Assembly (NCBI GenBank): GCA_042852035.1
Contig: BAAFHK010000001.1
Coordinates: 240,001-272,000, forward strand
Length of the DNA stretch: 32,000 nt
Reading direction: 5' to 3'
Origin: Candidatus Saccharimonadota bacterium
GTDB taxonomy: Bacteria > Patescibacteriota > Gracilibacteria > BD1-5 > UBA2023
Shown one piece after another: positions 2,343 to 13,821 of this stretch; the first letter of the stretch is position 1, and each line of letters starts with the position of its first letter. Under the pieces are notes generated by a model, which worked only from the letters and a program-made list of their open reading frames with translations, made no database searches and was not told where the DNA came from. The position numbers and the translations under genes were made by a program.

Positions 2343-2618
2343 TTATTTGCGAGTAGCAACATCCCAGGTTCGTAGGAGTTCGTCGATGAATGCATCTACC
2401 ACTCTTGGGTCGTCGGATGAAAGTTTTTTCTTTCCGCAACAGAGGAGATGGTCTCTCATGAGTTCGCGATTCGCGGATTTGAGGAGTCCCATTGTCGCAT
2501 TAATTTGATGTGCTACATCAGCACAGTAGACATCATTTTCTGCCATTTCGATGACCTTTTCGAGAGTCCCTCTTGCTTTCTTGAGACTTGTAATAATAGC
2601 TTTTCGTTCGTGTTGCAT
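2343..2618 (-). CDS. csoR: CsoR/RcnR-family metal-sensing transcriptional repressor
   Basis: 91 aa, intact in the ORF track. It shows the DUF156 pattern, with a C...H...C ligand arrangement (VYCADV ... DHLLCCG) as in copper-type CsoR. Confidence 0.85.
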   Translation of the reverse strand: MQHERKAIITSLKKARGTLEKVIEMAENDVYCADVAHQINATMGLLKSANRELMRDHLLCCGKKKLSSDDPRVVDAFIDELLRTWDVATRK

Positions 2619-2627
2619 AGAGAGAGT

Positions 2628-2888
2628 TTAGAGTTTTCCGAGCGCGCAGGAAACATAGCTTTTTGCTTTCTTTATAAAATTCTCTGCCTCAGGACTTCCG
2701 ACTTCGGGGTACCCTAGTGAGGAGAGAAGGGAAGTTATATCTTCTTTTTTTGGCCCCTTAGTATACTGCAAGGTTCCAGTTTTTATATCGATATGAACAT
2801 CTTCTGCTCATACCTTTTCGAGTGCTTTGGTGATGGTGTTTGCACACCCGCAACACTTGATGTTCATGATTTGTATCGTCTGTTTCAT
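2628..2888 (-). CDS. copZ: Heavy-metal-associated (HMA) domain protein, CopZ-like chaperone
   Basis: 86 aa: MKQTIQIMNIKCCGCANTITKALEKVGAEDVHIDIKTGTLQY... The metal-binding CxxC is near the N-terminus of a ferredoxin-like HMA fold. It contains one TGA=Gly and sits immediately upstream of csoR. Confidence 0.75.
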
Positions 2889-2891
2889 ATA

Positions 2892-2939
2892 CCATACCAT
2901 AGGGTATGGTTATATTATTCTGGTAAGAAAAAGAGTCAA
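2892..2939 (-). promoter_or_regulatory. Sigma70-like promoter with a candidate CsoR operator
   Basis: On the minus strand the promoter reads TTGACT (2939-2934), a 16-nt spacer, then TAATAT (2917-2912). It is followed by the inverted repeat CCATACC-N4-GGTATGG (2892-2909), directly abutting the copZ ATG. The palindrome resembles the TACC-N-GGTA type described for CsoR sites. Confidence 0.5.
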
Positions 2940-5924: not shown

Positions 5925-6770
5925 ATGAAACGCAAATTTTCTTCATGGATTATTCTATTTATTGCTGTTGGTATTACTTTTTTTAGTATAGAAGAATTCT
6001 ATCAGACTCATGAGGAAAATACGCTTCCTTCACAAAAATTGGGAGTCTCTTCTGAATTAGTTCATCCTGAACCTCTTCCAAAAAGTGCATGACAACAAGA
6101 TTGTTCCATGAATGGAACATGGTTCCAAGAAAATGAACGTGAGGGATATCAGAGTTGACTTATTGATTGTGATCATGCTGTTTCATATAACCTACTTGAT
6201 GGAACTGTAGAGTCAATAACGGGAGCTTCAACTTTTGAAAAATGATATATTTCAGATGATAACGGGACATATTTTGCATTAAACGTAAAAAGCTGTTGAT
6301 GAGCTCCATGTGAATTTAGAAAGATATCTCCAAAAACCAGATTACAAATTATGAATAATTCATGAGTATTATTTGCGAGTGATGGAATCAATATCTTTTA
6401 TAATGGCATAATTCTGAAGTGAGCTACGAAAATATCAGATTTTATTGTGCTCAATGACACGGTTTGATGAGTGATATTTCGAAATTCTGATACGGTTTGG
6501 TTCGATGGGCAAGCTATAGAATGAGCTGATTCAAGAACATTTAAAATTATTTCAGGAAGTGAAGAGGGGAGCTCTTCGGTATTTGCATCGGATAAAAAGT
6601 ATTGCTATCATCTTTTATCGTATTGAGGTGATTCTGGCGTTATTCCAGAGTGTATTCCAGAGAATTTCCGTACCCTCTGAAAGGAATATTCCACTGATGG
6701 AAAAAGTGTATTCTTGCAAAATAGTAAAATCGAAGGGGCGAACCCACTTACTTTCAGGCTTCCACAATAA
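5925..6770 (+). CDS. DKNYY-repeat family protein, N-terminally membrane-anchored
   Basis: 281 aa with 14 in-frame TGA, all checked in frame. There is an N-terminal TM (WIILFIAVGITFF). Repeated units are of the type DKKYCYHL / GKSVFLQNSKIEGANPLTFRL / VWFDGQAIEGADSRTFKII. The stop is TAA 6768-6770. The standard-code ORF 6559-6774 is in another frame. Confidence 0.8.
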
Positions 6771-6772
6771 AT

Positions 6773-6805
6773 AAAAAATTCCCTCCAAATCGGAGGGAAT
6801 TTTTA
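6773..6805. terminator. Bidirectional intrinsic terminator
   Basis: 10-bp stem aattccctcc / ggagggaatt with a 5-nt loop, flanked by A6 and T5 runs. It lies between convergent genes and overlaps the stop of the MBL gene. Confidence 0.75.
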
Positions 6806-7501
6806 TTCGAGTCCAAGTTTTAGATTTGCTGGAAGAGCGACATCGAGGAATTTTGGTGGAGCGAGATGAAGTGCATTCATTGTTTCAGTGAATGCTTCGA
6901 GCGTGGTCTCAGTTCGAATACGAGTATTGTATTGTTTCTCTTCGCCAATTGTTGACATCATATGCCCTGCATAATCGTGTCCTGGATAGACCTTTGTATC
7001 ATCAGGGAGTGTGTACATTTTGTCTTTGATTGAGTGGTACATCTTCTCGGGAGATCCTTGTTGGAAGTCAGTACGTCCCGTCTTTCGGATGAAGAGCACA
7101 TCCCCAGAAAAAAGCATATCTCCGATAACAAATGAGGTGCATCCATCCGTATGACCTGGAGTTGAGAGGGCTTTTATTTCTATATTCCCGACCGTAAGGA
7201 CTTCTCCATCATGAAGGAGGATATCAGGTTTTGCGACTGCAGCACCTTCTCCAAGGGCAATCTTGGCTCCTGTTTTCTCCCGGAGTACCCCACTTCATGT
7301 GATGTGATCGGCGTGGATATGGGTATCGAGGATATAACTGAGAGTGAGTCCGAGTTCGGTGAGGAGCTTCATATCTCGTTCGACTTGTTCACGGACAGGA
7401 TCAATAATGACCGCTTCTTGGGTCTCGCTATCCGCGACGATGTAAGTGTAAGTCCAGGTCTTCTCATCGAAGAGTTGGCGGAAGATGATAGTGTTGTTCA
7501 T
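6803..7501 (-). CDS. MBL-fold hydrolase, ETHE1/Blh-type persulfide dioxygenase-like
   Basis: 232 aa with the motifs DTHIHADHITG, STPGHTDGC, FSGDVLFIRKTGRTDFQQGS and VYPGHDY. There is one TGA=Gly at 7295-7297. I checked every codon across the 7117-7295 gap. Confidence 0.85.
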
Positions 7502-7504
7502 AAT

Positions 7505-7532
7505 TTGACAGTTTAAATAATATTGTTATATT
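7505..7532 (+). promoter_or_regulatory. Sigma70-like promoter facing the plus strand
   Basis: TTGACA (7505-7510), a 16-nt spacer, then TATATT (7527-7532). It points into the spacer between tauE and the MBL gene, both of which are on the minus strand. Confidence 0.4.
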
Positions 7533-7539
7533 TAATTTA

Positions 7540-7715
7540 TCACATACTCGCGGAGGTTAGATGGTCGAATCGATTCTCATCTGTGCTTTCGCGGCATGGG
7601 TGCTCGAAAGAGTGGTTTTCACGGTGCCCTCGAAGATTCGATGGGCAATCGCAACGGTGTTCATGACCATCATCTGGCATGTGACGCTCTACATGAGGGG
7701 GTAACCCCTTTTTTT
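7540..7715 (+). ncRNA. Candidate ~175-nt sRNA antisense to the tauE-MBL spacer (class unknown)
   Basis: It begins just downstream of the 7505-7532 promoter. It ends in a GGGG-UAA-CCCC hairpin followed by T7 (7697-7715), which acts as a terminator only in the plus orientation. The interior is GC-enriched, with a GCUC-GAAA-GAGU hairpin and a CAUGU...ACAUG hairpin. The alternative reading is a minus-strand His/Cys-rich ORF (see noticed_but_rejected). Confidence 0.35.
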
Positions 7716-7785
7716 GTATTAATTTTTGAAGCAACTTTGCCAGAATCGAGTGGCACACCAGTGTCAGAAAGGTTTCATAGATAAA

Positions 7786-8553
7786 TTAGAAAAAAAGTTC
7801 TTTCGAAAGCATAACGACAGCTGCCGTCATCGTGAAGTAACCAAATCCCTGAGTCAGATGTTCACTCGCGAGATATTTCTGGAGAAAAAGTCCGATAGTG
7901 AGTCCACCGACAGCAATGAATACGAGCGTCGCGAGAAATGCCGTGTCAACCTCAGGAGGAATCCTTCATGCAGCTCCTATAAGCATATTGAGTGAGATAA
8001 TGCTCATGGAGGTCGCGATAGCCTTTTTCCCTTCGAGTCACTCGAAGAACATGAGTGCTGGTACGATGAGGAATCCAACTCCAGCTCAAACGAGCCCAGT
8101 GATAAATCCAACAACTCCTCCCCTGAGTCAGGTGCGTAAAATTTTTCCATGGGTTGAATACGTATTTTTCGCACTACTTAGAGATTTTTTCTTACAGATC
8201 ATCGAGCAGCCAGAGGCAAACATGATGAAGGTGAAGAGGATGAGGAGGTAGGTGGATTTTTCGAGGATCCAGAGATGTTCTGGAAGGGTCGGGAGGATAT
8301 ATCTGCGAGTCAGGACTGTGATGATGATCGAGGGGATGGCGAAATGAAATCCTGTCTTCCATGAGATACGGTTGTGTGCGAGAAATGTCCCGATGACTGA
8401 GGTTGATCCAACGATGATCATGCTATAAAACGTCGCGAGGAGAGGATCAATATGAAATCCATATACGAGCGTAGGAATCGCGAAAATCCCTCCGCCACCT
8501 CCGACGAGTCAGATAATAATCCCGACAAGGATAAAGAGAAGAAGGGAAAACAT
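7786..8553 (-). CDS. TauE/SafE (DUF81) family sulfite/anion exporter
   Basis: 255 aa, polytopic. It starts MFSLLLFILVGIIIGLVGGGGGIFAIPTLVY and has the second-half repeat GGVVGFITGLVGAGVGFLIVPALMFF. The start codon overlaps the trx stop (TAATG at 8551-8555). The stop is TAA 7786-7788. Confidence 0.9.
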
Positions 8554-8864
8554 TAGAGGTATTTTTCGATTAAGGTCTTGAGTTCATCGACATATTTCAC
8601 TCCGACGACCTTCTCGACGGGTTTCCCGTCTTGGAAGAGAATCATTGTCGGGATTGATCTGATTTGGAAGGCATTTGGCACATTGGGTTCATTATCGACA
8701 TTGTGCTTCATGACTCGCATTTTGCCGTCCATCACCTTCGCGAGTTCTTCGAGGATGGGTCCCATCATCTGACAGGGTCCGCACCATGGTGCCCAGAAAT
8801 CGACGAGGACGACACCTTTCTCGATATCACGAGCGAAATTATTATCCGTAGAAGTGTATGTCAT
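8553..8864 (-). CDS. trxA: Thioredoxin
   Basis: 103 aa from the internal ATG at 8864: MTYTSTDNNFARDIEKGVVLVDFWAPWCGPCQMMGPILEE... It has the canonical WCGPC motif. The longer upstream extension in the ORF track is hydrophobic junk that overlaps the promoter. Confidence 0.9.
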   Translation of the reverse strand: MTYTSTDNNFARDIEKGVVLVDFWAPWCGPCQMMGPILEELAKVMDGKMRVMKHNVDNEPNVPNAFQIRSIPTMILFQDGKPVEKVVGVKYVDELKTLIEKYL

Positions 8865-8890
8865 AGTATTTTTTATAGTGTTACATGAAT

Positions 8891-8944
8891 ATATTATGAA
8901 AATGTAATATAAAGTCAAAAGAAAATATTATGAAAATGTAATAT
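8891..8944 (-). promoter_or_regulatory. Two tandem copies of the palindromic operator ATATTATGAAAATGTAATAT; the proximal copy is embedded in the trx promoter
   Basis: Identical 20-mers at 8891-8910 and 8925-8944, 34 bp apart. On the minus strand the proximal copy lies inside TTGACT (8918-8913), a 16-nt spacer, then TAATAT (8896-8891), 27 nt upstream of the trx ATG. Each 20-mer is an inverted repeat, ATATTA-N8-TAATAT. Confidence 0.6.
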
Positions 8945-8961
8945 ATAGTGTTTTGAATTAT

Positions 8962-8989
8962 AAAAAAATCCACTAAGATTTGGATTTTT
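8962..8989 (-). terminator. Intrinsic terminator of the ATPase-Toprim gene
   Basis: 9-bp stem aaaaatcca / tggattttt with an 8-nt loop that overlaps the TAG stop. A T run follows on the minus strand. Confidence 0.7.
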
Positions 8990-10781
8990 CAGGAGGATTA
9001 CATATGAGTTTTATTTTGTCGAAAAGAGGACTAAAGTTTTTAAAGTATTCTATACCAAGAGTATCAATAATGATTCTACTAAAATGAGTTTTATCTCATT
9101 TAAATGTAATGATTTCTCATCATGGTGAGCATACTTTATTGTAGTGCAAATTATCAAAATCATCATTAATTCAATAAAACATCAGTTCAATAGGGAATAT
9201 TGTTTTGGATCAGAAATGTTGTCCAGAAGTCATATCAAAAAGTTGTCTGTTGATTTTTTGGGACTTATTTATTGGTAATAATAGAGCATAAAATCATGCA
9301 TCCTTTGCTTTATTTGATAAGCAAGTTTCAGGATTGGTATCGTGAGTTATGAAGTCAAGTCAGTTCCACTGATTATATCACTCTTCATCAAAATCAAATA
9401 AACCAATGACACAACTATTTTGAAAACAATTTGCTTTTTCGAGTGAGTATTTAACATCTTTTGCATTCTGTCATTTTGTTGGTTTTGGAATATAAAACGG
9501 CATCTTGACTCAAGGGTAAAGTTTACTCCAAGATTTTTCAAGTATTTCTTTATCAGTAAATCATTCAACAAATAATAATGGTTTTTCTTTATTGCTTAGT
9601 ATTTCCAATGTTTTATTATTCTCTTGTGTTAGTTCTCGTATTCTAATTTCCTGATTTCAAATTTTATCAAAAAATTCCTTATTGGCTATTCACAGTTCTT
9701 TATATTGTGTCTTTTGTACAGGAAGTATTCTTGGTTCATATCACTTTCGAAATACTTCATAGTAATTTGTTCATTCAGGGGCTAATGATATTGTAGTTGG
9801 TGAGTGAGTTACAACTATTACCATAATTCAATTATCTACAAAATATTGATTCAATACCTTGTAAAACATTTCAGTCAAAGATGGATTAAATGTCGCATCA
9901 AATTCATCTAGTAATAACAGCTTTATGTTATTTTTATCACGAGAATTGAGTGTTGAAAATATTAATGAAGTAATGACCTTTTCTCAATCAGATAAATCTG
10001 TTACTTCCATTCATTTTTTTTCATCAATAGTCCCATTGATAATTGGGTATATCCTTGGTTGTTCGATAATTCATGTAATTGATGTGTAGTTATCTTTAAA
10101 TCTATAGTCTATTTTAAGAAGTTTAAATAATTCATTAAGTTTCTTCCACGGGGGGAATCATAATTCATTTTGCAAGTCTGAGTCGCTTATAAGGACTCCT
10201 TGATCATATTTTTCCAATTTTAATTTAGTAAATTTATTTGCATATATAAGAAATGAATCTGCTACTATATTTGAAAAAATATCATCAGATTCCCAGATAA
10301 ACTCATCATCAATAGCTCATATTATCTCTTCTCTTTGGAGCAATCCTCCCATAAATCTACTCTCTCAAAATTTTTGAGTGAGTATCTCCTTTGCTTTTTT
10401 TGAAGATTTTTGGAAACTTTTTAATATCTGATGATTTTCATTAAGAAGGACTCAGTTTGTGTAGTGGCTCCAAACACTATTTTTATGATTTATGAAATTT
10501 TGTGGTTCCGCATTTCAGATATTGTTTATTTGCTGTATATTACTTTGAAGTGTTCGAAATTGTATATTTTTATAATTTATCGGTATGCCATCAATGTCTA
10601 TGCTTGTGGCAATATTTTTATTTGGGTCTTCGGGATATTGTCACTTAATTATTTGCATTAATTGTGATTTTCCACTTCCATTTACTCAAGAAATAATTAT
10701 TAAATTTCACTCTAAGCTTATCTCAAATCAACTTGGAAAGGATTTGTATTCTTCAAATAGTCTAATATTTAAAACTCCCAT
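8973..10781 (-). CDS. Fused ABC-type (AAA15/21-like) ATPase + Toprim/DUF4435-like nuclease; OLD-family or fused PARIS (AriA-AriB)-like defence candidate
   Basis: A 602-aa single frame of 1809 nt with many TGA=Gly. Motifs: Walker A IISGVNGSGKSQL, ABC signature-like LSDGEK, Walker B KLLLLDEFDATFNP, and H-loop VVTHSP. The C-terminal Toprim motifs are PLLFVEGFTDKEIL and GLFDFDEEG. It is the most AT-rich coding stretch in the window. Confidence 0.8.
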
Positions 10782-10852
10782 ATAAATCTTAATTAATATT
10801 TATACAAATTATATTTAAAGAGACTTCTCTTTCCAGCTTTTCCGATTTTAAA

Positions 10853-11479
10853 TTATTCTTTTACCTCACACACCCCACCCACACAATTCTGATTCTTGTG
10901 TTCTTTCATCCACTTCCGACGCACGAGCCAGCCATAGATCCGACAGCCGACACAGTATCAGGCGACAGATTCGAGCCACATAAAGGTGATACAGAGGATG
11001 CATGCAAAAAGGGTAGGATTCAGTGGTGTGACGATGAGTTCATGATTTCGGAGATTTTCAGCAGTTGTCATCCAGATTTTTCCAACGGTCTCGGCCTGTG
11101 GTCCAGCAGTAGGGGCCACATAGCCTCCGAGGATGAGTATGCAGTAGAGAGCAAATACTGAGAGGAAGAGTCCGATGCTCCATGCAAATCGTTTTTGTAC
11201 CGCACCAACCCAGATTTCTTTGCTCTTTTCGAGATTCATACGTACAAGAGATCCGAAGATGCTCCACTTTGGTCCGATGAATATCTTCATGATGAACTCG
11301 AGTATGACGATGCTCACGAGGACGAGGGGGATAGAGTATTCAGCCTTGAAGAGGACGAGGAAAAATGATGTCATCGTGAAGAGGAGCATGATGCCTGTTG
11401 AGATGCGGATTTCTCGTTCATCGACGAAACCATATTTATCGTGTTTTTCAGAGATGCCGTGAATGAAGTGTCAGTACAT
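10853..11479 (-). CDS. DUF4395 family membrane protein
   Basis: 208 aa: MYGHFIHGISEKHDKYGFVDEREIRISTGIMLLF..., with several TM segments. The C-terminal GYCVGCRIYGWL motif is reached only by reading TGA 10958-10960 as Gly. The stop is TAA 10853-10855. Confidence 0.8.
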
Positions 11480-11537
11480 AGAAGAAAATTAAAACACCTA
11501 TAAGTGTAGGTGTTTTTTACGCAGATTCAAGAAAGAA

Positions 11538-11921
11538 TTACTGAACTATCTTTACATTTTGTATACTATCCATACCGCCAACATCCCTTATATTCGTATA
11601 TCATGCATTTTTGAGAATGTTGTATGCAATAGCAGATCGTCGTCCACTACGACAATAGAGGTTCACAGGAGTGTTTTTCGGAATAATAGAAAAATTTCCT
11701 GCTTCAATATCTCCGAGTTTTACGTGCATGGCTCACTCGATGTGGCCAGCTGTCCATTCGCTATCTTCGCGGACATCGACATAGAGTACTGATTCCTTTC
11801 ACTGAGTCTCCGAAGAGACGGAAGCACTTGGGAGAGAGCTACTCGATCAAGCTGGGGGAGGGGAGTTGGTACAACTTGCGAGAGAAAGAAGGGCACCAAA
11901 GAGAAGAATATATTTGAGCAT
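11538..11921 (-). CDS. Rhodanese-domain lipoprotein (sulfurtransferase)
   Basis: 127 aa. The signal peptide has a lipobox (MLKYILLFGALLSLAS-C). Rhodanese motifs are VLYVDVREDSEWTAGHIEGA and the active-site loop YCRSGRRS. Confidence 0.85.
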
Positions 11922-11982
11922 AAAAAGAAATTATGGAGAGAACGGATGTTCCCGAAAACCCACCCAATTAGGGTTGGAAATA

Positions 11983-12768
11983 TTAGTGATTCATTTGTCC
12001 CATGCCATTTCCTTGTCCACCACCACGACGATTTCCTGATCCTGTAGGTCCACGACCATCACCATTTCCTCAGCCTTGGGCTCCAAAGGTTTGGAGATTA
12101 TTGGACTTGAGGAGATCAGTCATTTTGTATTTGAGGGGGCCAGTGCTGTTTAGTTCGCTGGCCGTCATATAGCGAGCATAGTCGGTCGTGACAATATAAT
12201 TATTTTCTACCGCGAGACGAAGAAATGCTCGAAGGTGATTGAAACTGCCACCACCGATATTTTCGAACACTCGGCGGACATCCGTATCTTCGACGGTTTT
12301 ATATTCAGAGAGGAGATGATCTATGTCTCCAACTTCTACCATAACTCAAGCTTCGATAGCTTCTGTGAGGCTTGTATCAATCATCTTTTTCAGGGTTTCA
12401 TAGGTACCAGAGTAGCTGCCATAGTCAGTCGGACGATCGATACTACGAGCATCGAGGAGGCGTCCAACCTGTTCTGAATGTTTTTCTTCCGAACTCACGA
12501 TATTCATCACTTCGGTGAACTCGGGATATTTTGCCACCATGAGGGTGTAGATGTCTTCTGCGAGACGTTCTTCGGAATAGGCATCCTTGAGAATGTTTTC
12601 GACTATTTTTGGATCAGTAGTTTGAGGGTCGGGGGCTTGTTTTTGATTGTTTGAAGCCACTGTTTGTGTTGGAGTTTGAGTCGAACTTGGTACTTTATTT
12701 TCTATACTAGAAAGAGTACAAGAGCTCAGAATGCAAGCAGAGAGTGGGAGAATTAAGAGGGCATTCAT
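11983..12768 (-). CDS. DUF2202 (ferritin-like) lipoprotein with a Gly-rich C-terminal tail
   Basis: 261 aa. The lipobox is LPLSA-C. Motifs are EERLAEDIYTLMVAKY, SSEEKHSEQV and the diagnostic GGGSFNHLRAFLR. Two TGA=Gly join ORFs 12346-12768 and 12070-12342 and add the tail GGNGDGRGPTGSGNRRGGGQGNGMGQMNH. Confidence 0.85.
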
Positions 12769-12786
12769 ATGAAAAATGGTTAATGT

Positions 12787-12806
12787 ATATTACAAAATTG
12801 TAATAT
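12787..12806 (-). promoter_or_regulatory. Third copy of the operator (perfect 9-2-9 palindrome)
   Basis: ATATTACAA-AA-TTGTAATAT, located 19 nt upstream of the DUF2202 ATG. It has the same ATATTA...TAATAT arms as the trx and arsR sites. Confidence 0.55.
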
Positions 12807-12847
12807 AATAACGAGTATAACATCTCAAAGTAAGAATTCGGAAAGAA

Positions 12848-13099
12848 TTATGCAATCCCCAGCTTTCCTACAAGTTCACCCTTTTCGTGCAGAGCATTGA
12901 TGCTATCGAATCCTCCGAGACACTCATCAGAGACAAATATCTGAGGAACGGTTCTCATGCCAGATTTTTTTGCTATAGCAATCATGGTATCCATGTCATG
13001 TGTGACATCTATTTCGTCATAGGTTGCACCAAGGGAGGAGAGGAGATTTTTTGCTTTGACACAATAGGGGCAATAATCTTTAGTATAGATGGTAATCAT
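12848..13099 (-). CDS. grxC: Glutaredoxin
   Basis: 83 aa, intact in the ORF track: MITIYTKDYCPYCVKAK ... TVPQIFV ... GGFD. It has the CPYC active site. Confidence 0.9.
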   Translation of the reverse strand: MITIYTKDYCPYCVKAKNLLSSLGATYDEIDVTHDMDTMIAIAKKSGMRTVPQIFVSDECLGGFDSINALHEKGELVGKLGIA

Positions 13100-13117
13100 A
13101 TCAGAGAGGTAAGAATA

Positions 13118-13462
13118 TTAAAAGAGACCAAAAAATCATTTTTTCTCACTTCGCACAACCTTATCTGCGAAATCATTTTCTATGGCATTCATGCCACCAG
13201 AAAGGTTGTATCCCTTGATGCCTTCACCTTCTGCAAACATTGTTGCTTGAGCAGATCTTCCGCCACTTCGGCAAATAAATACAACCTTTTTTGACTTATC
13301 GATTTCACTCATGCGAACGGGAAGGATGTGAAGGGGGATATTTTTTGCTTCTTTGAGGCGAGCTTCATCATATTCACCGGTTCCACGTACATCAATGAGT
13401 TCGATGGTCTCTGGTGCGGTTGTGAGTGATTCCATGAGTTCCTTGGCAGAGAGAGTATTCAT
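13118..13462 (-). CDS. Single-domain rhodanese (sulfurtransferase)
   Basis: 114 aa with the active-site loop FICRSGGRS. TGA 13136-13138 is read through for 5 codons (GFFGLF) to TAA 13118-13120. Confidence 0.9.
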
Positions 13463-13476
13463 AAATAGAGAGTATA

Positions 13477-13767
13477 TTAAAGGCTACAAAAGTTTTTTTC
13501 GAGGTCGTGGATGAGGTTTCGTACTCGTATATCTTTAAGTGAATAGAAGACGAACTGTCATTTTTTCTCACTTATGAGGAGTCATTCTTTCTCAAGTTTC
13601 CCGAGAAATTGTGAGAGTTGAGACTGAGAAATAGTACAATCTTTCTCTAGTTCCCCAACAGATTTTGGTCCACTTAGAAGACGACAACAGAGGAGGAGTC
13701 GTTTTGGGTGGGCAATAAGCTTCAAGATATGAGCAACTTCATCTGCTCGTTCCGAGAGATTTTTCAT
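13477..13767 (-). CDS. ArsR/SmtB-family repressor, SqrR/BigR-like (candidate persulfide sensor)
   Basis: 96 aa with a winged HTH (HPKRLLLCCRLLSGPKSVGELEKDCTISQSQLSQFLGKLEKEGLL). The Cys in helix 2 (C27/C28) and the Cys near the C-terminus (C94) are 66 residues apart (C28 to C94). Two TGA=Gly. The stop is TAA 13477-13479. Confidence 0.8.
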
Positions 13768-13793
13768 ATTCGAAAAAAGTAATATGTGTATTT

Positions 13794-13821
13794 ATATTAT
13801 AAAAATGTAATATAATGTCAA
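13794..13821 (-). promoter_or_regulatory. arsR promoter with embedded operator (fourth copy)
   Basis: The 20-mer ATATTATAAAAATGTAATAT is at 13794-13813. On the minus strand it reads TTGACA (13821-13816), a 16-nt spacer, then TAATAT (13799-13794), 27 nt upstream of the arsR ATG. That offset equals the one at trx. The 32-nt block differs from the trx proximal block at 2 positions by my alignment. Confidence 0.6.

What the first reader, a model, noticed from the sequence alone, without database searches (positions are those of the whole stretch)
6803..13767. SqrR/BigR-type persulfide-stress gene set in a reduced code-25 genome
The ArsR-family protein has a Cys in helix 2 (C27/C28) and a Cys near the C-terminus (C94). 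C28 and C94 are 66 residues apart. As I recall, that equals the spacing of the sensing pair in SqrR (C41/C107) and BigR (C42/C108).

The genes carrying its putative operator are those expected for reactive sulfur handling:
- an ETHE1/Blh-like MBL dioxygenase
- a TauE/SafE exporter
- thioredoxin and glutaredoxin
- two rhodaneses, one of them a lipoprotein
- DUF4395 and a DUF2202 lipoprotein

Blh together with a TauE-like permease is also the core of the described BigR operon. Such a complete module is notable in a small, symbiont-type genome, and it suggests life in sulfidic niches or on sulfur-metabolising hosts.
Basis: partly seen in the sequence, partly recalled or inferred. Interest (0 to 1): 0.6.

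Follow-up and report, generated by a model that had tools for sequence, protein, structure and literature searches.

The report
Persulfide-sensor regulon in a CPR episymbiont
A tiny host-dependent bacterium that reads UGA as glycine carries a BigR/SqrR-type sulfur-stress repressor, and its conserved binding sites sit on three promoters of sulfur-handling genes; it is a well-known kind of system found in a lineage where it had not been described.

Summary
The window uses UGA as glycine and comes from MAG HHAS10 (BD1-5/JAEDAM01 'Gracilibacteria', activated sludge).

- The 96-aa ArsR-family protein matches BigR and SqrR best, by sequence and by fold. The match is ungapped.
- C28 and C94 fall on the two sensing cysteines and are kept in all 27 related code-25 loci. 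The alpha-5 metal site is absent.
- The MBL protein is an ETHE1-type persulfide dioxygenase (E = 3e-69 to the Myxococcus PDO).

A 22-bp palindrome, TATATTAC-N6-(G/A)TAATATA, occurs four times and only at three promoters: arsR-rhodanese-grx, DUF2202-rhodanese-DUF4395 and trx-tauE. Its core, ATTA-N8-TAAT, has the geometry of SqrR's ATTC-N8-GAAT. It overlaps the -10 hexamer. It also lies upstream of arsR in 27 of 27 related loci.

Corrections:
- The dioxygenase and DUF4395 have no operator of their own.
- A PARIS-like ATPase gene and a small antisense gene interrupt the module.
- CstR belongs to a different fold family.
- The 'sulfidic niche' inference is not supported. The host is Zoogloea in aerated sludge, and relatives come from glacier streams.

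Verdict: a new member of a known kind, moderately interesting.

The parts
13477..13767 (-). arsR-family repressor, 96 aa, BigR/SqrR type (C28 in helix 2, C94 after helix 5; also C27 and C44)
   Evidence: NCBIfam best hit is BigR NF040642, 73.4 bits over the full length. PDB matches: BigR 2e-17, SqrR 1.7e-16. AF2 pLDDT 91.5. Foldseek TM 0.91-0.94 to BigR/SqrR.
13793..13814 (-). Operator O1 (TATATTACATTTTTATAATATA), inside the arsR promoter (TTGACA-16-TAATAT, 13821-13794)
   Evidence: A homologous site lies within 170 nt upstream of arsR in 27 of 27 related loci.
13118..13462 (-). Cytoplasmic single-domain rhodanese, 114 aa, active-site loop CRSGGRS (C64)
   Evidence: PF00581, 5.3e-15. Motif position. 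Found next to arsR in 21 of 22 related loci.
12848..13099 (-). Glutaredoxin, 83 aa (CPYC)
   Evidence: PF00462, 7.9e-21; TIGR02181 GRX_bact, 88.3 bits. Present in 16 of 22 related loci.
12786..12807 (-). Operator O2 (TATATTACAATTTTGTAATATA), upstream of the DUF2202 gene
   Evidence: Same position in L001, L004, L006, L011, L012 and L014.
11983..12768 (-). DUF2202 ferritin-like lipoprotein, 261 aa
   Evidence: PF09968, 3.7e-15. PDB match MJ0754 (3q4n), 8e-12. Lipobox read from the sequence.
11538..11921 (-). Rhodanese lipoprotein, 127 aa, PspE-like, active-site loop CRSGRRS (C90), lipobox LASC
   Evidence: PF00581, 3.4e-15; NCBIfam PspE, 51.7 bits. Motif position.
11491..11516 (-). Terminator-like hairpin between the rhodanese lipoprotein gene and the DUF4395 gene
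10853..11479 (-). DUF4395 membrane protein, 208 aa, with C-terminal CxxC and CxxxxC motifs
   Evidence: PF14340, 3.3e-20. Cysteine positions. Directly follows rhodanese or trx in L001 and L016.
8973..10781 (-). Inserted ABC-ATPase/Toprim-type defence-like gene, 602 aa. Not part of the regulon. It has its own promoter at 10835-10808.
   Evidence: AAA_21. PADLOC AriAB, 5.6e-14, and ATPase-Toprim. GC 0.30. Absent from all 80 related loci.
8890..8945 (-). Operators O3 (8924-8945) and O4 (8890-8911). O4 lies inside the trx promoter (TTGACT-16-TAATAT, 8918-8891).
   Evidence: The same double site lies before trx in L006.
8553..8864 (-). Thioredoxin, 103 aa (WCGPC). The true start is the ATG at 8864.
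   Evidence: TIGR01068, 116.4 bits, above its cutoff. Sequence.
7786..8553 (-). TauE/SafE-family anion exporter, 255 aa. Its start overlaps the trx stop (TAATG).
   Evidence: PF01925, 6.6e-30. Junction.
7561..7704 (+). Unannotated 47-aa, predicted two-helix membrane protein gene, antisense within the tauE-PDO spacer. Promoter 7505-7532, GGAGG, terminator 7695-7711.
   Evidence: Homologues in the same place in L006 and near PDO/grx in L034. Not in the deposited annotation.
6803..7501 (-). Type I (ETHE1-like) persulfide dioxygenase, 232 aa. Motifs HIHADH (61), TPGHT (114), FSGD (131), YPGHDY (172).
   Evidence: PDB matches: 4ysb 3.4e-69, BpPRF 1.3e-67, AtETHE1 2e-63, human ETHE1 1.4e-61. Motif positions.
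6774..6804 (-). Terminator hairpin (14-bp stem followed by a T-run) that ends the module

Best explanation
The 96-aa ArsR-family protein is a dithiol repressor of the BigR/SqrR/YgaV class that senses reactive sulfur species.

Proposed mechanism (all steps inferred):
- In the reduced state, a dimer binds a 22-bp palindrome whose right half-site is the -10 hexamer of three promoters. This blocks RNA polymerase.
- When persulfides or polysulfides accumulate, C94 and then C28 are modified. They close into an intraprotomer di- or tetrasulfide, and the repressor leaves the DNA.
- Three units are then expressed.

The three units:
1. arsR-rhodanese-glutaredoxin.
2. DUF2202 lipoprotein-rhodanese lipoprotein, with DUF4395 by read-through of a hairpin.
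3. Thioredoxin-TauE, with the ETHE1-type persulfide dioxygenase most likely by read-through across a small antisense gene.

Proposed roles of the products (all inferred):
- The rhodaneses move sulfane sulfur onto or off thiols.
- Trx and Grx reduce protein and low-molecular-weight persulfides.
- The dioxygenase oxidises thiol persulfide to sulfite, using O2.
- TauE exports the sulfite.

Shown here: the gene identities; the alignment and conservation of the cysteine pair; the absence of the alpha-5 metal site; the operator copies, their promoter overlap and their conservation; and the synteny.

Inferred: the inducer, the crosslink chemistry, the read-through, and the flux through the enzymes.
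For: Regulator:
- The best NCBIfam hit is BigR over its full length.
- The best PDB hits are BigR (2e-17), SqrR (1.7e-16), YgaV and HlyU. The BigR, SqrR and HlyU alignments are ungapped.
- The AF2 model (pLDDT 91.5) superposes on BigR and SqrR at TM 0.91-0.94, and on reduced SqrR at rmsd 0.9-1.1 A.
- In reduced SqrR the two S-gamma atoms are 7.0 A apart.
- C28 and C94 align with BigR C42/C108, SqrR C41/C107 and YgaV C31/C98.
- C28 is present in 27 of 27 code-25 relatives and C94 in 26 of 26.
- The CzrA alpha-5 ligands D84/H86/H97/H100 correspond to D79/R81/N92/S95, so that site is absent.

Operator:
- There are 4 copies in the window against 0.00 expected.
- They overlap TTGACA/TTGACT-16-TAATAT promoters.
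- In 27 related loci (366 kb) there are 60 sites against 2.65 in local shuffles. All 27 loci have a site within 170 nt upstream of arsR.
- The operator recurs before DUF2202, trx, an RND pump and a PDO operon in relatives.
- The ATTA-N8-TAAT core has the same 4-8-4 geometry as SqrR's ATTC-N8-GAAT in a 22-bp minimal site.
- BigR also binds at the -10 region, and YgaV binds the RNA polymerase recognition site.

Regulon:
- The PDO matches characterised persulfide dioxygenases at 1e-61 to 3e-69.
- Within 6 kb of arsR in related loci: rhodanese 21/22, Grx 16/22, PDO 12/22.
- In L014 the PDO lies inside the operator-controlled DUF2202 operon. In L011 an operator precedes a 119-aa gene followed by the PDO.
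- The described BigR operon likewise holds an ETHE1-domain enzyme and a TauE-like transporter.
Against: - No experiment has been done. The inducer is inferred only by homology.
- The NCBIfam BigR model is an equivalog model with a cutoff of 155 bits. This protein scores 73.4, so it is not a BigR orthologue in the strict sense.
- The PDO has no operator and no recognisable minus-strand promoter. It is separated from tauE by 284 bp containing a strong plus-strand promoter, a small gene and a plus-strand terminator. Its co-regulation in this genome is therefore an inference.
- DUF4395 lies behind a terminator-like hairpin.
- No sulfide:quinone oxidoreductase is in the window, so the source of persulfide is unknown.
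- A third cysteine, C44, is invariant in the lineage and unexplained.
- About 19 non-CPR relatives lack C28 yet remain linked to sulfur genes. The canonical pair is therefore not the only workable arrangement in this clade.
Confidence: 0.78

Rival explanations
1. The architecture is the same, but the physiological signal is general thiol-oxidative stress (H2O2, disulfide or electrophile stress in an aerated habitat) rather than persulfide. On this reading the regulon is a Trx/Grx-centred redox-repair set.
For: - The regulon includes thioredoxin, glutaredoxin and a ferritin/rubrerythrin-like DUF2202 protein.
- BigR was first described as a redox switch that forms a plain disulfide, and its cysteines can be sulfenylated and glutathionylated.
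- The organism lives in aerated activated sludge.
- No SQR is present in the window.
Against: - The most conserved partners of the regulator are rhodaneses (21/22) and a persulfide dioxygenase (12/22). YeeE/YedE-like and TauE transporters occur in relatives. These are sulfur-specific, not general antioxidant genes.
- SqrR's dithiol pocket reacts with persulfides but poorly with disulfide oxidants.
- No catalase, peroxiredoxin or superoxide dismutase gene is under the operator.
Confidence: 0.12
2. The sensor is the same, but the module serves sulfur acquisition or assimilation rather than detoxification. Surface rhodanese, DUF2202 and DUF4395 would capture sulfane sulfur or thiosulfate from the host or surroundings. 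The cytoplasmic rhodanese, Grx, Trx and PDO would then process it for a cell with almost no biosynthesis.
For: - Two of the products are lipoproteins, hence extracytoplasmic. One is PspE-like (thiosulfate sulfurtransferase).
- The second-best structural relative of the PDO is BpPRF. A paper cited titles that protein as functioning in sulfur assimilation.
- HHAS10 has negligible central metabolism and depends on a host.
- Relatives carry YeeE/YedE-like transporters in the same cluster.
Against: - A repressor released by persulfide induces the genes when sulfane sulfur is high. That is the logic of detoxification, not of scavenging.
- TauE points to export of an oxidised product.
- Distant DUF4395 homologues show no sulfur context.
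Confidence: 0.15
3. The regulator is a metal- or metalloid-sensing ArsR/SmtB protein, and the neighbouring genes are unrelated to it.
For: The generic NCBIfam 'metalloregulator ArsR/SmtB' model is passed (68.4 bits against a cutoff of 55). This is also the name given in the deposited annotation.
Against: - Only 1 of 4 alpha-5 ligands is kept.
- There is no Cys at the alpha-3 CVC positions (V37-G38-E39, by inspection and recalled motif).
- Metal sensors such as CzrA, SmtB and NmtR score far lower than BigR and SqrR.
- No metal transporter is under the operator in this window.
Confidence: 0.02

Closest known systems
BigR and the bigR operon of Xylella fastidiosa and Agrobacterium tumefaciens
   Same: - ArsR-fold repressor with a Cys in helix 2 and a C-terminal Cys at identical aligned positions (C42/C108).
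- Binds an operator at the -10 region.
- The operon contains an ETHE1-type dioxygenase, a sulfurtransferase function and a TauE-like exporter.
   Different: - About 40% identity, and below the NCBIfam BigR equivalog cutoff.
- Here the dioxygenase and the rhodaneses are separate proteins, not the DUF442-ETHE1 fusion Blh.
- The regulon is split over three promoters. It adds Trx, Grx, two lipoproteins and DUF4395.
SqrR of Rhodobacter capsulatus
   Same: - Same Cys spacing (C41/C107).
- Model rmsd of 0.9-1.1 A to reduced SqrR.
- Operator of the same 4-8-4 geometry within a 22-bp dyad: ATTA-N8-TAAT against ATTC-N8-GAAT.
   Different: - The inner base of the half-site differs.
- SqrR is a master regulator that includes sqr and photosynthesis-related genes. 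No sqr is seen here.
- This lineage has an extra invariant Cys (C44). SqrR's third Cys (C9) is in the N-terminal tail.
YgaV (E. coli ygaVP) and Acinetobacter baumannii BigR (PDO2 plus YeeE/YedE)
   Same: - Autoregulated ArsR-type sensor adjacent to a rhodanese (YgaP), or to a PDO plus sulfur transporters.
- A tetra- or pentasulfide forms between the same two Cys positions.
- Clade-2 relatives of this locus also carry a YeeE/YedE-like gene.
   Different: - YgaV has one extra residue between the cysteines (31/98).
- It also controls anaerobic respiration genes, which are absent from a CPR genome.
CstR and the cst operon of Staphylococcus aureus
   Same: Functional analogue: a persulfide-sensing dithiol repressor that controls a PDO (CstB), a rhodanese (CstA), SQR and a TauE-like gene.
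   Different: - Unrelated fold (CsoR family, interprotomer crosslink), so the regulator here cannot be aligned with it.
- The window's own CsoR-family gene (2343-2618) has the Cu-type C-H-C pattern and sits next to an HMA-domain gene.
PDO-rhodanese gene pairs reported in CPR bacteria (Valentin-Alvarado et al. 2024, PMC10811913)
   Same: Adjacent persulfide dioxygenase and sulfurtransferase genes in CPR genomes, including Gracilibacteria.
   Different: That report describes neither a regulator nor an operator, and it interprets the genes as energy-yielding thiosulfate oxidation in sulfidic sites. Here the genes belong to a repressor-controlled stress-type regulon in a non-sulfidic habitat.

Membership tests
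BigR/SqrR/YgaV-type RSS-sensing ArsR repressors | ArsR/SmtB winged-helix fold (a1-a2-a3-a4-b1-b2-a5) | tested here: met
   The AF2 model has these elements in this order, pLDDT 91.5. TM 0.91-0.94 to BigR/SqrR. PF01022.
BigR/SqrR/YgaV-type RSS-sensing ArsR repressors | Cys in helix 2 at the position of SqrR C41 / BigR C42 | tested here: met
   C28 aligns without gaps. Present in 27 of 27 code-25 relatives.
BigR/SqrR/YgaV-type RSS-sensing ArsR repressors | Cys at the C-terminal end of helix 5 at the position of SqrR C107 / BigR C108 | tested here: met
   C94 aligns. Present in 26 of 26 code-25 relatives and 51 of 53 others.
BigR/SqrR/YgaV-type RSS-sensing ArsR repressors | The two thiols are within bridging distance in one protomer | tested here: inconclusive
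   Model coordinates cannot be read, so no distance was measured. The distance is inferred from rmsd 0.9-1.1 A to reduced SqrR, where S-gamma to S-gamma is 7.0 A.
BigR/SqrR/YgaV-type RSS-sensing ArsR repressors | No intact metal-binding site | tested here: met
   The CzrA ligands D84/H86/H97/H100 align with D79/R81/N92/S95. The alpha-3 positions are V-G-E; the alpha-3 motif is taken from memory.
BigR/SqrR/YgaV-type RSS-sensing ArsR repressors | Palindromic operator that overlaps its own promoter (autorepression) | tested here: met
   O1 lies inside TTGACA-16-TAATAT. A site lies upstream of arsR in 27 of 27 related loci. Binding itself was not tested.
BigR/SqrR/YgaV-type RSS-sensing ArsR repressors | Genomic linkage to sulfane-sulfur enzymes or transporters (PDO, rhodanese, TauE, YeeE) | tested here: met
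BigR/SqrR/YgaV-type RSS-sensing ArsR repressors | Persulfide-induced di- or tetrasulfide crosslink that releases the DNA | not testable with these tools
   Needs purified protein, mass spectrometry and DNA-binding assays.
BigR sensu stricto (NCBIfam NF040642 equivalog) | Score at or above the curated cutoff (155 bits) | tested here: not met
   73.4 bits. It should be filed as BigR/SqrR-like, not as BigR.
Type I (ETHE1-like) persulfide dioxygenase | MBL fold with HxHxDH, a downstream His and Asp metal ligands, and close similarity to characterised PDOs | tested here: met
   Motifs HIHADH-61, TPGHT-114, FSGD-131, YPGHDY-172. PDB matches: 4ysb 3.4e-69, human ETHE1 1.4e-61. Glyoxalase II scores only about 1e-22.
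Type I (ETHE1-like) persulfide dioxygenase | Fe(II)- and O2-dependent conversion of GSSH to sulfite | not testable with these tools
   Needs an enzyme assay. The thiol cofactor of this organism is unknown.
CstR (CsoR-family persulfide sensor) | CsoR/RcnR all-helical fold (PF02583) | tested here: not met
   The regulator matches PF01022/ArsR only. PF02583 is matched by a different gene, at 2343-2618.
Metal-sensing ArsR/SmtB (alpha-5 type) | Asp/His/His/His(Glu) ligand set on helix 5 | tested here: not met
   Only 1 of 4 ligands is retained.

The most novel reading that the evidence does not exclude
In BD1-5/JAEDAM01 episymbionts the persulfide sensor controls a previously undescribed cell-surface sulfur pathway. 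A ferritin-like DUF2202 lipoprotein, a PspE-like rhodanese lipoprotein and the Cys-rich membrane protein DUF4395 would together take sulfane sulfur from the host or environment across the membrane, or neutralise it there. In relatives an operator-controlled RND pump would also take part. This would give a first function to two DUF families. It would also point to reactive sulfur as a currency or weapon at the symbiont-host interface. The invariant third cysteine C44 might add a lineage-specific twist to sensing.
Probability: 0.15. Interest if true: 0.6.

Novelty: new member of a known kind. Interest (0 to 1): 0.35.

Why it matters
CPR/Patescibacteria have very few recognisable regulons, and their physiology is mostly guessed from gene lists. 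This locus is different in several ways:
- It pairs a sensor with a sharply defined operator: 4 sites in this window and 60 in 27 related loci. That gives a concrete, testable regulon for a host-dependent bacterium of about 1,175 genes.
- Reactive-sulfur homeostasis is evidently retained despite extreme genome reduction, and in habitats that are not sulfidic.
- This argues against reading PDO-rhodanese genes in CPR as markers of sulfur-based energy metabolism or of sulfidic niches.
- It places two uncharacterised families (DUF2202 and DUF4395) and a small unannotated membrane protein under a sulfur-responsive promoter in this lineage.
- The operator gives a second natural half-site (ATTA) for the SqrR-type 4-8-4 architecture. 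That is useful for work on ArsR-family DNA specificity and for biosensor design.

Tried and rejected
- **Table-11 ORF tools.** They are useless here, so ORFs were recomputed under table 25.
- **Rfam and tRNA scans of the window.** They found nothing. The GC-rich tauE-PDO spacer is therefore not a known RNA.
- **A His/Cys-rich minus-strand reading frame in that spacer.** It was considered and rejected. The conserved frame is the plus-strand 47-aa ORF, which has its own promoter, GGAGG and terminator.
- **An operator in front of the PDO.** None was found at up to 3 mismatches. The local palindrome TTAAATA-N9-TATTTAA is unrelated to the operator.
- **A supposed third operator copy before trx.** This was my own mis-assembly of two printouts. 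Re-reading the sequence removed it.
- **Exact look-up of the regulator's contig.** It failed. The source was identified instead through cluster members and the HHAS10 locus tag.
- **The BigR box paper (PMC1951920).** It is not held, so the operator was compared only with SqrR's.
- **DUF4395 as a general sulfur-linked family.** Rejected: three distant homologues sit in unrelated contexts.
- **C44 as an ArsR/CadC alpha-3 metal ligand.** Rejected: it aligns with a hydrophobic I/L position seven residues after the CVC site.
- **The Cys-Cys distance.** It could not be computed, because the structure tool returns no coordinates.

Full report
**Genetic code and source**

The 32-kb window (38.5% GC) only makes sense if UGA is read as an amino acid. 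ORFs of at least 80 aa sum to 23,376 aa when UGA is sense, against 7,793 aa under table 11. Nearly every long ORF carries in-frame UGA.

UGA = Gly fits curated models better than UGA = Trp: IspG 419.8 vs 393.1 bits, LeuRS 1025.3 vs 979.9 bits. Inside the regulator itself, codon 62 is UGA and aligns with a Gly in BigR, SqrR, YgaV and HlyU.

Exact-sequence look-ups place the proteins in an NCBI MAG with locus tags HHAS10_ (GAB0174379-388), on a 750-kb contig of 'Candidatus Altimarinota'. Two papers describe HHAS10:
- It is a 1.30-Mb, 97.7%-complete genome of about 1,175 genes.
- It belongs to GTDB class JAEDAM01, order BD1-5.
- It comes from aerated activated sludge.
- FISH shows it attached to Zoogloea.
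- It has almost no central metabolism.

Neither paper mentions this locus.

**What is in the interval**

All genes are on the minus strand. Pfam, NCBIfam and PDB searches give:

| Gene | Coordinates | Notes |
|---|---|---|
| ArsR-family regulator | 13477-13767 | |
| Single-domain rhodanese | 13118-13462 | active-site loop CRSGGRS |
| Glutaredoxin | 12848-13099 | |
| DUF2202 lipoprotein | 11983-12768 | homologous to the ferritin-like MJ0754, 8e-12 |
| PspE-like rhodanese lipoprotein | 11538-11921 | |
| DUF4395 membrane protein | 10853-11479 | C-terminal CxxC motifs |
| ABC-ATPase-type protein, 602 aa | 8973-10781 | |
| Thioredoxin | 8553-8864 | true start is ATG 8864 |
| TauE/SafE exporter | 7786-8553 | start overlaps the trx stop |
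| MBL-fold protein | 6803-7501 | |

The MBL-fold protein is an ETHE1-type persulfide dioxygenase. Its PDB matches are Myxococcus PDO 3.4e-69, BpPRF 1.3e-67, Arabidopsis ETHE1 2e-63 and human ETHE1 1.4e-61. Glyoxalase II scores only about 1e-22. All of the MBL metal motifs are present.

It omits two things:
- **The 602-aa gene.** It is AT-rich (GC 0.30). It has 28 UGA codons and its own promoter. It resembles PARIS AriAB/ATPase-Toprim defence proteins. It is absent from all 80 related loci, so it is an insertion into the module.
- **A small plus-strand gene** in the tauE-PDO spacer (described under "Limits" below).

**The regulator**

- Its best NCBIfam model is BigR, matched end to end (73.4 bits). 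This is below the 155-bit equivalog cutoff, so it is BigR-like and not BigR proper.
- Its best PDB matches are BigR (2e-17), SqrR (1.7e-16), YgaV and HlyU. The BigR, SqrR and HlyU alignments are ungapped. Metal sensors score far lower.
- An AlphaFold2 model built on 45 homologues has pLDDT 91.5 and the canonical a1-a2-a3-a4-b1-b2-a5 order.
- Foldseek ranks BigR and SqrR first, at TM 0.91-0.94 and with rmsd 0.9-1.1 A to reduced SqrR.
- In a joint alignment, C28 falls on BigR C42, SqrR C41 and YgaV C31. C94 falls on C108, C107 and C98.
- The four alpha-5 zinc ligands of CzrA correspond to D79/R81/N92/S95, so that metal site is gone.
- The literature confirms the residue numbers and the intraprotomer crosslink. 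In reduced SqrR the two sulfur atoms are 7.0 A apart.

I could not read the model's coordinates, so the C28-C94 distance is inferred from the superposition and was not measured.

Across 27 related code-25 loci, C28 is present in 27 of 27 and C94 in 26 of 26. C27 is Leu in all 27, so it is a recent substitution.

C44 is also invariant in these loci. It aligns with an I/L/T position at the end of helix 3 in the characterised proteins, so it may simply be buried.

**The operator**

The intergenic regions share the sequence TATATTAC-N6-(G/A)TAATATA. A pattern search finds four copies: 13793-13814, 12786-12807, 8924-8945 and 8890-8911. No other copy occurs in the 32 kb, and 0.00 are expected by chance.

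The copies lie in front of arsR, DUF2202 and trx. At arsR and trx they sit inside TTGACA/TTGACT-16-TAATAT promoters, so the right half-site is itself the -10 hexamer. This is the classic position for a repressor. BigR likewise binds at the -10 region, and YgaV binds the RNA polymerase recognition site.

The core, ATTA-N8-TAAT, has the same 4-8-4 geometry and 22-bp extent as SqrR's ATTC-N8-GAAT.

**Comparative evidence**

A scan of one genome per species returned 80 loci. Of these, 27 are code-25 BD1-5-type genomes. Most of the rest are Bdellovibrionota.

In the 27 code-25 loci (366 kb) there are 60 operator matches at up to 2 mismatches, against a mean of 2.65 in local shuffles. All 27 loci have a match within 170 nt upstream of arsR. 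Further copies lie:
- before DUF2202 (at least six loci);
- before trx (L006);
- before a 119-aa gene followed by the PDO (L011);
- as a double site before an RND pump just upstream of arsR (L004, L009, L016, L040).

A weaker version of the palindrome also precedes arsR in many Bdellovibrionota loci and a few other non-CPR loci.

Synteny within 6 kb of arsR, among 22 code-25 loci with enough flank:

| Gene | Loci |
|---|---|
| Rhodanese | 21 |
| Grx | 16 |
| PDO | 12 |
| DUF2202 | 9 |
| DUF4395 | 5 |
| Trx | 4 |
| TauE | 3 |

A second clade carries a YeeE/YedE-like gene between arsR and the rhodanese, and L006 carries a YgaP-like DUF2892 protein. The conserved core is therefore arsR-rhodanese-grx, with a variable shell of sulfur enzymes and transporters.

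**Limits of the regulon in this window**

The PDO has no operator at up to 3 mismatches and no recognisable minus-strand promoter. The 284-bp spacer before it holds:
- the best sigma-70-like match of the whole region, on the plus strand (TTGACA-16-TATATT, 7505-7532);
- a GGAGG;
- a 47-aa, predicted two-helix membrane ORF (7561-7704);
- a plus-strand terminator (7695-7711).

This small gene is conserved at the same place in L006, and near PDO/grx in L034. It is not in the deposited annotation.

The PDO is thus most likely reached by read-through from trx-tauE, antisense to this small gene. That step is an inference. It is supported only by relatives in which the PDO lies inside operator-controlled operons (L014, L011).

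DUF4395 follows a terminator-like hairpin (11516-11491). Distant DUF4395 homologues show no sulfur context, so its link to the regulon is specific to this lineage.

**Mechanism**

The best-supported reading is as follows.
1. The reduced dimer occupies the palindromes and occludes the -10 hexamers.
2. Persulfide or polysulfide modifies C94 and C28, which close into a di- or tetrasulfide.
3. DNA affinity drops and the three units are transcribed.
4. The rhodaneses shuttle sulfane sulfur, and Trx and Grx reduce persulfides.
5. The dioxygenase makes sulfite with O2, and TauE exports it.

Shown here: the anatomy, the conservation and the homology. Inferred: the inducer, the crosslink chemistry and the fluxes.

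The main rivals keep the same architecture but change the signal or the purpose:
- general thiol-oxidative stress;
- sulfur acquisition through the two lipoproteins and DUF4395.

A metal-sensing role is effectively excluded.

**Comparison with what is known, and novelty**

This is a BigR/SqrR/YgaV-type system. It differs from the described ones in five ways:
- separate rather than fused PDO and rhodanese;
- a three-promoter layout;
- direct control of Trx and Grx;
- two extracytoplasmic lipoproteins;
- no sqr in view.

PDO-rhodanese pairs in CPR, including Gracilibacteria, were already reported. They were read as sulfur-oxidation capacity in sulfidic sites (PMC10811913). In the searched library, none of the twelve best-ranked papers that mention SqrR or BigR also mentions Patescibacteria or CPR.

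The source is aerated sludge on Zoogloea. The same module occurs in relatives whose record titles carry isolate labels such as GFS_ and GL. I read these as glacier-fed-stream and glacier samples, an interpretation that was not checked.

I rate the finding a new member of a known kind. It is solid and moderately interesting.

Noticed in passing
window 7505-7711 (+): Unannotated small gene antisense to the module: promoter TTGACA-16-TATATT, GGAGG, a 47-aa predicted two-helix membrane ORF (MVESILICAFAAW...) and a terminator. Homologues lie at the same place in L006 and next to PDO/grx in L034. It has no Pfam match and its function is unknown.
   Followed up: partly
window 8973-10781 (-): A 602-aa ABC-ATPase/Toprim-like protein (PADLOC AriAB, ATPase-Toprim, GajA/PtuA-like) is inserted between DUF4395 and the trx operators. 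GC is 0.30, it has 28 in-frame UGA codons and its own promoter, and it is absent from all 80 related loci. It is probably a defence gene that landed inside the regulon.
   Followed up: partly
window 2343-2900 (-): A CsoR/RcnR-family repressor (91 aa) with the Cu-type C32...H57...C61 spacing sits next to an HMA-domain (CopZ-like, CxxC) protein. This is a copper module, not a CstR-type persulfide sensor.
   Followed up: partly
regulator residue 44 (window about 13636-13638) and loci L001-L080: A third cysteine, C44, is invariant in 27 of 27 code-25 loci and present in 44 of 53 other relatives. BigR, SqrR, HlyU and CzrA have I/L at this position and YgaV has T. About 19 non-CPR relatives have Gly instead of C28. 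They keep a helix-1 Cys (position 8), C44 and C94, and still sit next to PDO, TauE, rhodanese or Trx.
   Followed up: partly
L004 4755-9926; L009, L011, L016, L040; L032 and L037 4873-10011: In several relatives, two tandem operators precede an RND-type pump (about 1,110-1,160 aa) plus a 570-aa lipoprotein directly upstream of arsR. In Bdellovibrionota, arsR is the last gene of a rhodanese-OMF-RND operon with the palindrome in front. No such pump is in this window.
   Followed up: no
loci L017-L080: The closest non-CPR relatives of the regulator (41-52% identity) are overwhelmingly from Bdellovibrionota (Bacteriovoracaceae, Halobacteriovorax, Bdellovibrio), which are other bacteria that attack bacteria. 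This may reflect gene transfer or shared ecology. No phylogeny was made.
   Followed up: no
L039 1158-1652; L006 12251-13150: Other BD1-5 loci place a YeeE/YedE-like membrane protein between arsR and the rhodanese. L006 has a 299-aa protein with a YgaP-like 'GYCPLY' (DUF2892-type) N-terminus after the rhodanese lipoprotein. The transporter shell of the regulon is variable.
   Followed up: no
window 6001-9000 and 11001-13000 vs 9001-11000: The module is richer in GC (0.41-0.44) than its flanks (0.35-0.38). The inserted ATPase gene is much poorer (0.30).
   Followed up: no
window 5925-6770 (+): A DKNYY-family secreted or membrane-anchored protein (281 aa, 12 UGA codons) lies immediately downstream of the PDO terminator, in convergent orientation.
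   Followed up: no
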